Below are positions 6,092 to 6,316 of a stretch of 11,833 bases of DNA, piece by piece. The DNA is from a virus (Duplodnaviria > Heunggongvirae > Uroviricota > Caudoviricetes), in the IMG/VR virus record IMGVR_UViG_2778261064_000021, positions 1 to 11,833 of that record; one strand, 5' to 3'. The position numbers were made by a program, and so were the translations under genes. Each line of letters opens with the position of its first letter. Positions within the stretch are counted from its first letter, which is position 1. Under the pieces are notes generated by a model. That model ran no database searches and was not told the DNA's origin. It saw nothing but the letters and a program-made list of their open reading frames with translations.

Positions 6092-6316
6092 ACTGTTCAC
6101 CACTGTTCACCCTGTCATAAATGTCTTTTATATCAGTACATTATAGGGTGAACAGTTATTTGTGAACTGTTCACCAAACTATTCACTGTTCACCTTTTTG
6201 ATTATTTATTGAGCTTTAAGGGTGAACAGTGGTGAACAGTTGGTGAATAGTTTTTGTGAAACTGTTCACCCTTTAACATCATGAATAAAAAGGGAAAATC
6301 GCAAAAGGTGAACAGG
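6092..6316. repeat. Iteron cluster, putative replication origin: about 9-10 copies of GGTGAACAGT / ACTGTTCACC in both orientations within an AT-rich stretch
   Basis: Copies at 6092, 6102, 6147, 6166, 6185, 6221, 6231, 6242 (variant), 6261 and 6307 (variant); directly downstream of the primase/helicase gene. Confidence 0.75.

What the first reader, a model, noticed from the sequence alone, without database searches (positions are those of the whole stretch)
6092..6316. Dense iteron array (GGTGAACAGT in both orientations) marks a probable replication origin
About ten copies of a 10-bp motif within about 225 bp of AT-rich DNA, directly downstream of the primase/helicase gene. This is the usual origin arrangement for satellite and plasmid initiators; the mixed orientation and tandem pairs (6221-6240, 6092-6111) suggest cooperative binding.
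Basis: partly seen in the sequence, partly recalled or inferred. Interest (0 to 1): 0.45.

Follow-up and report, generated by a model that had tools for sequence, protein, structure and literature searches.

The report
Replication origin of an E. coli phage satellite
The repeat cluster is almost certainly the replication origin of a phage-parasitic island (PICI) in E. coli: an ordinary, already described kind of origin, unusual only in using the same binding motif as satellite phage P4.

Summary
There are eight exact and two one-mismatch copies of GGTGAACAGT, in both orientations, at 6092-6316, starting 12 nt after the stop of the 601-aa gene. Shuffles of the whole window give about 0.6 such matches.

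The origin reading is supported by homology and comparison, not by experiment.
- Residues 493-589 of the 601-aa protein match the solved origin-binding winged helix of phage P4 alpha protein (1KA8, E 2.5e-24).
- The 8-nt core TGTTCACC is what the P4 GenBank record annotates as "ori type 1 repeat" in P4 ori and crr.
- The island has the gene order of EcCICFT073, the E. coli PICI whose pri-ori segment was shown to replicate. That origin has the same layout but a different core (GGTAGACA).
- In 24 of the 26 related arrays examined, an array follows the initiator gene directly. Its core falls into six classes that track the C-terminal "wing" of the protein, and recombination breakpoints lie just upstream of the wing.

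Two refinements follow. The left half (6092-6194) is colinear with P4 ori and the right half (6221-6324) with one P4 crr unit. The "primase" has no detectable primase catalytic domain.

Verdict: a new member of a known kind, of modest interest.

The parts
4274..6079 (+). Initiator gene (601 aa). Contains D5_N, an SF3 helicase and a C-terminal origin-binding domain. It is called pri-rep in PICIs and is a homologue of P4 alpha.
   Evidence: Pfam finds D5_N at residues 158-287, DUF5906 at 321-429 and Pox_D5 at 492-587. It is 49.9% identical to P4 alpha over residues 134-591 and 49% identical to EcCICFT073 Pri-Rep. The SaPI5 PriRep structure 7OLA matches at E 3e-10.
4274..4663 (+). N-terminal domain of about 130 aa. 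It has a Toprim-like fold but no zinc ribbon and no recognisable Toprim acidic motifs, so it is probably not an active primase.
5750..6040 (+). Origin-binding winged-helix domain (residues 493-589).
   Evidence: phmmer against the PDB matches 1KA8 (P4 alpha origin-binding domain) at E 2.5e-24, aligned over residues 493-589.
5963..6028 (+). Specificity segment (residues 564-585, EYMKRKTKHGLRSNVTLTEDSE). It is inferred to be the end of helix 3 plus the beta-hairpin wing, and it co-varies with the iteron core.
   Evidence: See the alignment and mutual information, the body-versus-wing identities and the recombination breakpoints. The secondary-structure assignment is inferred, because the single-sequence model was poor.
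6092..6194 (.). Left (ori-like) module. It holds iterons 6092-6101(-) and 6102-6111(-), the AT-rich spacer 6112-6146, and iterons 6147-6156(+), 6166-6175(-), 6178-6187(-, degenerate) and 6185-6194(-).
   Evidence: It is colinear with P4 ori read in the alpha orientation: offsets 0,10,53,74,(85),93 against 0,10,53,75,86,96. It is also colinear with the EcCICFT073 origin. Its spacer resembles the P4 ori spacer (p=0.004) and the CFT073 spacer (p=0.002) but not the crr spacers.
6112..6146 (.). AT-rich 35-nt spacer between oppositely oriented iterons. It is the candidate unwinding site and contains an exact IHF consensus at 6130-6142.
   Evidence: 6120-6145 is the 5th least stable 26-nt duplex stretch of the window. 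The IHF match is; it is exact in only one of the relatives.
6195..6220 (.). T-rich linker between the two modules. It contains GCTTTAAG (6213-6220), which resembles the P4 'ori type 2 repeat'.
   Evidence: Sequence. The P4 type 2 repeats GCTTTAAGTG/GCTTTAAATG are. This is a weak lead based on one copy.
6221..6324 (.). Right (crr-like) module. It holds iterons 6221-6230(+), 6231-6240(+), 6242-6251(+, 1 mismatch) and 6261-6270(-), the spacer 6271-6306, and iterons 6307-6316(+, 1 mismatch) and 6315-6324(+, 2 mismatches).
   Evidence: It aligns with the two 120-bp repeat units of P4 crr, including the spacer text. The spacer matches crr unit 1 at p=0.004 and unit 2 at p<0.0002, and does not match the P4 ori spacer (p=0.65).
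6325..6350 (.). Conserved AT-rich tract right after the last iteron pair. It is a second candidate unwinding site, or a promoter region for the downstream genes.
   Evidence: 6324-6349 is the 4th least stable 26-nt stretch of the window. It is conserved in relatives of several iteron classes.
6610..7032 (+). Island-encoded single-strand DNA-binding protein. It is a likely accessory of the same replication module.
   Evidence: Pfam SSB at E 3.4e-16. The gene sits in the same position in EcCICFT073 and in L001.

Best explanation
The array is the replication origin of an integrated E. coli phage-inducible chromosomal island (PICI) of the EcCICFT073 type.

Proposed mechanism:
1. After induction, the 601-aa protein is made from the gene that ends 12 nt upstream of the array.
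2. Its C-terminal winged-helix domain binds the roughly 12 iterons (core GGTGAACA). All iterons lie on one face of the helix, in two modules.
3. Cooperative binding on both sides of the AT-rich spacers distorts and melts the DNA. The most likely site is 6112-6146; 6325-6350 is the alternative.
4. The same protein's SF3 helicase ring loads itself there.
5. Host enzymes and the island's own SSB do the rest. Because the protein has no recognisable primase catalytic domain, priming is probably by host DnaG.

The left module corresponds to P4 ori. The right module corresponds to P4 crr, the cis-acting partner site that P4 also needs. Here the two are adjacent instead of about 4.7 kb apart.

What is shown: the repeats; the domain homologies; the colinearity with P4 and with EcCICFT073; the conservation; and the wing-iteron co-variation. 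What is inferred: binding, the melting site, self-loading and the source of primers.
For: - The repeats are real and far above chance. They are phased at 10.5 bp: resultant 0.81, p about 0.0008.
- Residues 493-589 match the P4 alpha origin-binding domain 1KA8 at E 2.5e-24.
- The P4 GenBank record annotates TGTTCACC as 'ori type 1 repeat' in ori and in crr, and crr lies directly after the alpha gene.
- The left half aligns with P4 ori and the right half with the crr units. The spacer similarities are reciprocal and specific.
- Gene order matches EcCICFT073. Its origin has the same layout. Fillol-Salom 2018 (PMC6092414) showed that its pri-ori segment maintains a ts plasmid, and that deleting pri or ori impairs this.
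- In 10 loci from 7 genera that share the core, iteron columns are 0.897 identical against 0.632 for spacers (p 7e-13).
- In 24 of the 26 related arrays examined, an array sits right after the gene. There are six core classes: GGTGAACA, GGTAGACA, GGTGGAGA, GGCGGACA, GGTGGACA and GGTAGATA.
- The core class follows the wing segment, not the rest of the domain. Window versus L007: body 67/79 identical, wing 8/25, different core. Window versus P4: body 39/79, same wing motif, same core.
- L018/L025 and L020/L021 are 93-100% identical in DNA until about 180-215 nt before the stop. From there the wing-coding part and the origin diverge together.
- No second iteron cluster exists in the window.
- Cos-like packaging sequences lie elsewhere.
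- No Rfam family overlaps the array.
Against: - There is no experimental datum for this allele. The tested EcCICFT073 initiator is only 49% identical and uses another iteron.
- In that experiment, deleting ori reduced colony numbers but did not abolish them.
- The start point of synthesis is unknown, and two AT-rich tracts are equally plausible.
- The co-variation rests on 26 phylogenetically related loci, with perhaps three to five independent switches.
- The assignment of the variable segment to the 'wing' is inferred, because the single-sequence model was unusable.
- Transcription of the island probably runs through the array: no terminator was found. A regulatory side role therefore cannot be excluded.
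Confidence: 0.88

Rival explanations
1. The array is only a crr-like cis-acting partner or copy-control ('handcuffing') site for the initiator. Replication actually starts somewhere else in the island.
For: The array lies directly after the initiator gene, which is where P4 has crr rather than ori. The right half is homologous to the crr units.
Against: The left half is colinear with P4 ori itself and with the tested EcCICFT073 origin. No other iteron cluster exists in the 11.8-kb window: there is one isolated core at 5506, which is within chance expectation.
Confidence: 0.07
2. The repeats are operators through which the initiator, or another island regulator, controls transcription of the downstream operon (SSB, capsid, terS). 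They have no origin function.
For: The array fills the gap between two co-oriented genes, and no terminator was found. A conserved AT-rich tract that could hold a promoter follows the last iteron pair.
Against: The promoter scan found nothing on the + strand. The homologous sites in P4 are replication sites. The equivalent EcCICFT073 region behaves as an origin. Twelve phased sites around melt-prone spacers is origin architecture.
Confidence: 0.03
3. The array is a packaging (pac/cos) recognition site for the island's small terminase.
For: Small terminases often bind arrays of short repeats, and the island encodes a Nu1-type TerS.
Against: Lambda-cos-like sequences are found 3 kb away, on both sides of terS, at 9299-9414 and 10207-10322. 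This matches the two cos sites reported for EcCICFT073. The repeat core also changes with the initiator's wing, not with terS.
Confidence: 0.01

Closest known systems
Replication origin of EcCICFT073 and other Gram-negative PICIs (Fillol-Salom et al. 2018, ISME J, PMC6092414)
   Same: The position is the same, immediately 3' of pri-rep. The layout is the same: two inverted groups of short iterons around AT-rich DNA. The flanking genes are the same: DUF4222, pri-rep, a small ORF, SSB, lambda-type capsid and decoration genes. The left spacer is also similar (p=0.002).
   Different: The iteron core is GGTGAACA here and GGTAGACA/GGTAGATA there. The initiators are 49% identical and their wing segments differ. 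This island also carries a Nu1-type terS, which EcCICFT073 is reported to lack.
Satellite phage P4 ori and crr, bound by the alpha protein (GenBank X51522; origin-binding domain PDB 1KA8)
   Same: The iteron is the same: TGTTCACC, often ACTGTTCACC. The origin-binding domain is homologous and carries the same wing motif. The left module is colinear with ori and the right module with a crr unit.
   Different: In P4, ori and crr are about 4.7 kb apart and crr is duplicated; here one copy of each is adjacent. P4 alpha has a Zn-ribbon plus Toprim primase part that this protein lacks. The rest of the island is PICI-like, not P4-like.
SaPI origins of Staphylococcus aureus, with Rep/PriRep self-loading helicases (Qiao et al. 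2022, PMC9371898)
   Same: Iterons lie immediately downstream of rep, on both sides of an AT-rich centre and pointing in opposite directions. They are read by a winged helix in the C-terminal domain of an SF3 helicase. The helicase core is homologous (7OLA, E 3e-10).
   Different: SaPI iterons are 5-6 nt long and unrelated in sequence. There is no detectable similarity between the C-terminal domains; only the ATPase core matched.

Membership tests
Gram-negative PICI replication origin (EcCICFT073 type) | Lies immediately 3' of the replication initiator gene (pri-rep) | tested here: met
   The first iteron starts 12 nt after the stop at 6077-6079.
Gram-negative PICI replication origin (EcCICFT073 type) | [quoted passage not shown] | tested here: met
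   Oppositely oriented groups lie around 6112-6146, and again around 6195-6220 and 6271-6306.
Gram-negative PICI replication origin (EcCICFT073 type) | The host element has the PICI gene set and order: int, alpA, pri-rep, ori, capsid-related genes, and cos and/or terS, all co-oriented | tested here: met
   int is at 1-1227, AlpA at 2344-2670, pri-rep at 4274-6079, SSB at 6610-7032, the major capsid gene at 7497-8552, the decoration gene at 8565-8900 and Nu1 TerS at 9517-10101. The order matches EcCICFT073.
Gram-negative PICI replication origin (EcCICFT073 type) | The initiator plus this DNA sustain autonomous replication | not testable with these tools
   This has been shown only for EcCICFT073, which has a 49% identical initiator and a different iteron.
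P4 alpha-dependent origin (ori + crr) | Multiple type I iterons (TGTTCACC) in both orientations | tested here: met
   There are 9 exact cores in 6094-6314. The P4 record annotates the same octamer as 'ori type 1 repeat'.
P4 alpha-dependent origin (ori + crr) | The initiator carries the alpha-type C-terminal winged-helix origin-binding domain | tested here: met
   1KA8 matches at E 2.5e-24 over residues 493-589.
P4 alpha-dependent origin (ori + crr) | The initiator has the N-terminal Zn-ribbon and Toprim primase part of alpha | tested here: not met
   [not shown]
P4 alpha-dependent origin (ori + crr) | ori and a duplicated crr are separated by several kb | tested here: not met
   Both modules are contiguous within 233 nt, and no second cluster exists in the window.
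P4 alpha-dependent origin (ori + crr) | The element carries the P4 hijacking genes (sid, psu, delta, epsilon) | tested here: not met
   The Pfam and PHROG scans of the main ORFs gave lambda-type capsid, decoration and Nu1 TerS genes instead.
Classical iteron plasmid origin (Rep_3/RepA initiators: pSC101, F, P1, R6K) | Direct repeats of about 17-22 bp in one orientation, a Rep_3-type initiator, and DnaA boxes | tested here: not met
   The iterons are 8-10 nt long and occur in both orientations. The initiator is an SF3 helicase. There is no DnaA box with up to one mismatch in 6000-6450.

The most novel reading that the evidence does not exclude
This PICI allele and satellite phage P4 share one initiator-iteron specificity. 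If so, two otherwise unrelated satellite families could fire, titrate or exclude each other's origins in the same cell. The compact PICI origin would then be the unsplit form of P4's ori plus crr. The wing-coding 3' end of the gene and the adjacent origin would move together as a recombination cassette with at least six specificities. That would give a readable wing-to-iteron code and a way for co-resident islands to escape cross-talk. As an example, L018 and L025 come from the same genome assembly and differ only from the wing onward.
Probability: 0.35. Interest if true: 0.5.

Novelty: new member of a known kind. Interest (0 to 1): 0.3.

Why it matters
For annotation, this fixes the origin of a very common E. 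coli island. Similar DNA is present in 987 of 5,426 complete genomes.

It also shows that the gene routinely labelled 'DNA primase' is better described as a helicase-initiator.

The comparative results give cheap, testable predictions:
- which residues set origin specificity;
- that PICI and P4 replicons of the same class should cross-react;
- that P4's puzzling need for a distant crr may be a rearranged version of one compact origin.

None of this changes the general picture of how satellite origins work.

Tried and rejected
- A single-sequence AlphaFold model of the origin-binding domain had pLDDT 36.8 and was unusable. I therefore did not claim a structural mapping of the wing.
- Full-text searches for TGTTCACC or GGTGAACA together with 'iteron' found nothing. 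The bare motif search returned only primer hits.
- Ziegelin et al. 1993 is not held. What I say about alpha binding the iterons, and about crr being required in cis, therefore rests on the P4 GenBank annotation plus my own knowledge of that literature.
- The supplements of the PICI paper contain no iteron sequences. I could not check whether this exact allele appears in its Fig. 2a.
- An IHF site as a conserved part of the origin was rejected. The exact consensus is present here, but in only one of the relatives at that position.
- There are no DnaA boxes and no GATC sites in the region.
- The exact lambda cosN sequence was not found with up to 2 mismatches. The cos-like arms were recognised only by their similarity to the lambda left-end text, which I know from memory.
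- No promoter on the + strand and no terminator were found around the array.
- The strong single-strand folding (z -7.3) simply follows from the inverted iterons. I do not use it as evidence.
- No Rfam family and no tRNA lie in or near the array.

Full report
**1. The observation**

A search for GGTGAACAGT with up to one mismatch gives 12 hits in the window, 10 of them between 6092 and 6316. Dinucleotide-preserving shuffles give a mean of 0.61 and never more than 3.

Eight copies are exact and two have one mismatch (6242-6251 and 6307-6316). Two further degenerate copies (6178-6187 and 6315-6324, two mismatches each) occupy positions that hold good copies in relatives.

The 8-nt core GGTGAACA is exact nine times in the array and once elsewhere, at 5506, which is within chance expectation. 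The array begins 12 nt after the stop codon of the 601-aa ORF (4274-6079). It fills most of the gap before the next ORF, which starts at 6413, or at 6368 if the start of the homologous annotated gene in L001 is used. GC content is 0.356 in the array against 0.477 for the window. The centres of the ten cores are in phase at 10.5 bp: resultant 0.81, p about 0.0008. They are not in phase at 10.0 or 11.0 bp.

**2. The element**

The window is an integrated E. coli phage satellite of the PICI type. Its genes, in order, are:
- a P4-family integrase (1-1227);
- an int-alpA RNA (1236-1302);
- AlpA (2344-2670);
- an Icd-like protein (2681-3325);
- DUF4222 (3978-4277);
- the 601-aa protein (4274-6079);
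- the array;
- a small ORF;
- SSB (6610-7032);
- a lambda-type major capsid protein (7497-8552);
- a head decoration protein (8565-8900);
- a Nu1-type small terminase (9517-10101);
- a host-like phosphoribosyltransferase gene from 11297.

A 601-nt query across the array matches 987 of 5,426 complete E. coli genomes, 114 of them at 95-99% identity. In one of the best matches (98.8% identity) the element sits next to a tRNA-Pro gene.

EcCICFT073 is the E. coli PICI studied experimentally by Fillol-Salom et al. 2018. It has the same order around the array: DUF4222, pri-rep, intergenic region, small ORF, SSB, then major capsid and decoration genes. Its Pri-Rep is 49% identical to the window protein.

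**3. The protein next to the array**

Pfam finds D5_N, the SF3-helicase region (DUF5906, weakly PPV_E1_C) and Pox_D5. Against solved structures, residues 493-589 match chain 1KA8_A, the origin-binding winged-helix domain of phage P4 alpha protein, at E 2.5e-24. The ATPase core matches the SaPI5 PriRep helicase 7OLA at E 3e-10. Over residues 134-591 the protein is 49.9% identical to P4 alpha.

The 'primase' label comes only from TIGR01613, 'primase_Cterm', which covers the helicase part. P4 alpha and one longer relative (L012) carry Zn_Ribbon_Prim plus Toprim_3 at the N-terminus. The window protein and EcCICFT073 Pri-Rep do not, and their first 149 residues hit no Pfam or NCBIfam model.

**4. 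The motif is the P4 iteron, and the array is colinear with P4 ori plus crr**

The P4 GenBank record (X51522) annotates 'ori type 1 repeat' octamers in the origin (9310-9413) and in crr (4291-4590). crr is the cis-required region that begins 45 nt after the alpha stop. These octamers are TGTTCACC/GGTGAACA, frequently in the extended form ACTGTTCACC, which is exactly the window motif.

Read in the alpha orientation, P4 ori has cores at offsets 0(-), 10(-), 53(+), 75(-), 86(-), 96(-). The left half of the window array has 0(-), 10(-), 53(+), 74(-), 85(-, degenerate), 93(-).

The right half aligns with each of the two 120-bp crr units. The alignment includes the non-iteron spacer and the closely spaced terminal pair.

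With the iterons removed, the spacer similarities are reciprocal and specific:
- The left spacer resembles the P4 ori spacer (p=0.004) and the EcCICFT073 left spacer (p=0.002), but not the crr spacers (p 0.3-0.5).
- The right spacer resembles the crr spacers (p=0.004 and <0.0002), but not the ori spacer (p=0.65).

So the single array contains an ori-like and a crr-like module side by side. In P4 the two are about 4.7 kb apart and crr is duplicated.

From my own knowledge of the P4 literature (Flensburg and Calendar 1987; Ziegelin et al. 1993, 1995; Yeo et al. 2002), alpha binds these iterons through its C-terminal domain, and both ori and crr are needed in cis. I could not retrieve those papers here.

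**5. Comparative evidence for function**

A scan of one genome per species returned 23 loci with relatives of the protein. Together with the window, phage vB_KppS-Ant, P4 and EcCICFT073, that makes 27 arrays. In 24 of the 26 related arrays, the 300-350 nt after the stop codon hold an array with the same order of orientations and nearly the same spacings. The exceptions are P4 itself and L026, a full-length alpha homologue with a split, P4-like arrangement.

The 8-nt core differs by lineage. There are six classes:
- GGTGAACA (the window, ten relatives and P4);
- GGTAGACA (five relatives and EcCICFT073);
- GGTGGAGA (three);
- GGCGGACA (two);
- GGTGGACA (one);
- GGTAGATA (two).

Within the GGTGAACA group, which spans 10 loci and seven genera, iteron-core columns have 0.897 mean pairwise identity. 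Spacer columns have 0.632, and the last 60 nt of the gene have 0.673 (Mann-Whitney p 7e-13).

The core class follows a short segment near the C-terminus, residues 564-585 of the window protein (EYMKRKT-KHGLRSNVTL...). It does not follow the rest of the domain:
- Window versus L007: 67/79 identical in the body, 8/25 in this segment, and different cores.
- Window versus P4 alpha: only 39/79 identical in the body, but the same KR[KH]T-K[HNQ]G[ILM][RQ][ST]N motif and the same core.

DNA comparisons show why:
- L018 and L025 come from the same metagenome-assembled genome. They are 97-100% identical through the helicase until about 215 nt before the stop. Identity then drops to 60-68% and falls below 50% in the origin.
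- L020 and L021 show the same pattern, breaking at about -180 nt.
- The window and L007 show it too, breaking at about -120 to -150 nt.

The wing-coding end of the gene and the adjacent origin are therefore inherited and exchanged as one unit. That is what one expects of a DNA-binding determinant and its target. It also explains why the origin sits right after the gene. By winged-helix topology I take this segment to be the end of helix 3 plus the beta-hairpin wing. This is inferred, because the single-sequence model was too poor to show it.

**6. How it most likely works**

The published model for this class is as follows. In SaPIs, the Rep C-terminal winged helix binds iterons on both sides of an AT-rich centre. 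Binding and melting need no ATP, and the helicase loads itself (PMC9371898). [quoted passage not shown] The EcCICFT073 pri-ori segment maintains a ts plasmid at the restrictive temperature, and deletion of pri or ori impairs this (PMC6092414).

Applied here, about a dozen phased sites would be filled cooperatively. Two stretches rank 5th and 4th among the least stable 26-nt stretches of the whole window: 6120-6145, in the spacer between convergent iterons, and 6324-6349, just after the last pair. These are the candidate melting sites. The SF3 ring would then load, and the island's SSB and host enzymes would complete the fork.

There are no DnaA boxes or GATC sites in the region. This fits a host-initiator-independent origin.

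**7. Rival explanations**

- *A crr-like helper site only.* This is contradicted by the left module's match to P4 ori and to the EcCICFT073 origin, and by the absence of any other cluster in the window.
- *An operator array for the downstream operon.* This cannot be excluded as a side role. However, no + strand promoter was found, and the homologous sites elsewhere are replication sites.
- *A packaging site.* This is unlikely. Lambda-cos-like sequences form a 116-nt inverted repeat around terS at 9299-9414 and 10207-10322, in line with the two cos sites reported for EcCICFT073.
- *Chance.* This is excluded.

**8. Novelty**

The kind of element and the kind of origin are published, and homology of PICI Pri-Rep to a P4 protein is mentioned in that paper as 'distant'. 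[quoted passage not shown] The colinearity with P4 ori and crr found here qualifies that statement.

I found no paper in the searchable library that gives these iteron sequences. I could not see Fig. 2a of the PICI paper, so I cannot say whether this allele is already drawn there.

I rate it a new member of a known kind. Three modestly interesting additions came out of the work: the shared specificity with P4, the fused ori-plus-crr layout, and the wing-plus-origin cassette with six specificities.

Noticed in passing
window 9299-9414 and 10207-10322: A 116-nt inverted repeat (78% complementary) flanks the Nu1-type terS gene (9517-10101). Both arms carry text resembling the lambda cos region (TTTATGAAAATTTTTC.GGAAAA...). 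They are probably the two cos sites reported for EcCICFT073.
   Followed up: partly
[not shown]
   Followed up: partly
proteins P0004, P0007, P0014, P0016, P0060: The same N-terminal domain (66-89% identical) appears in E. coli database proteins joined to other C-terminal parts: AAA_25/RepA-type helicase, SSB and PerC. These could be alternative initiator architectures, or deletion fusions in decayed islands.
   Followed up: no
window 6368-6613: The ORF after the array is interrupted. A TGA at 6410-6412 breaks the frame that starts at GTG 6368, which is the start used for the 81-aa homologue in L001. Only a 66-aa TTG-started ORF (6413-6613) remains.
   Followed up: partly
window 1236-1302 (+): Rfam int-alpA RNA (RF02996), 55.2 bits, lies between the integrase and the next ORF.
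   Followed up: no
window 6130-6142: An exact match to the IHF consensus WATCARNNNNTTR (TATCAGTACATTA) lies in the AT-rich spacer of the left module. The consensus is exact in only one of the relatives, but a CAGTA..TTA core recurs in P4, EcCICFT073 and L023.
   Followed up: partly
window 6213-6220: GCTTTAAG lies between the two modules. It resembles the three 'ori type 2 repeats' of P4 (GCTTTAAGTG, GCTTTAAATG, ACTTTAAGTG), which also follow the ori iterons in the alpha orientation. There is only one copy, so this is weak.
   Followed up: no
L026 (Erwinia rhapontici), iterons about 4.3-4.2 kb upstream and 2.1-2.2 kb downstream of the stop of an open reading frame of about 812 codons for a full-length alpha homologue: This locus has a split, P4-like arrangement of GGTGAACA clusters instead of the compact array. 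It could help to order the ori/crr rearrangement in evolution.
   Followed up: no
L018 and L025 (two contigs of one Enterobacterales MAG, SMAGNO137): Two co-resident islands have helicase genes 97-100% identical up to about 215 nt before the stop, but different wings, iteron cores (GGTGAACA versus GGTGGAGA) and downstream DNA. This is suggestive of selection against shared origin specificity.
   Followed up: partly
window 11297-11833: A phosphoribosyltransferase gene (Pfam Pribosyltran, E 1.5e-26) probably marks host DNA to the right of the island. The right attachment site was not located.
   Followed up: no
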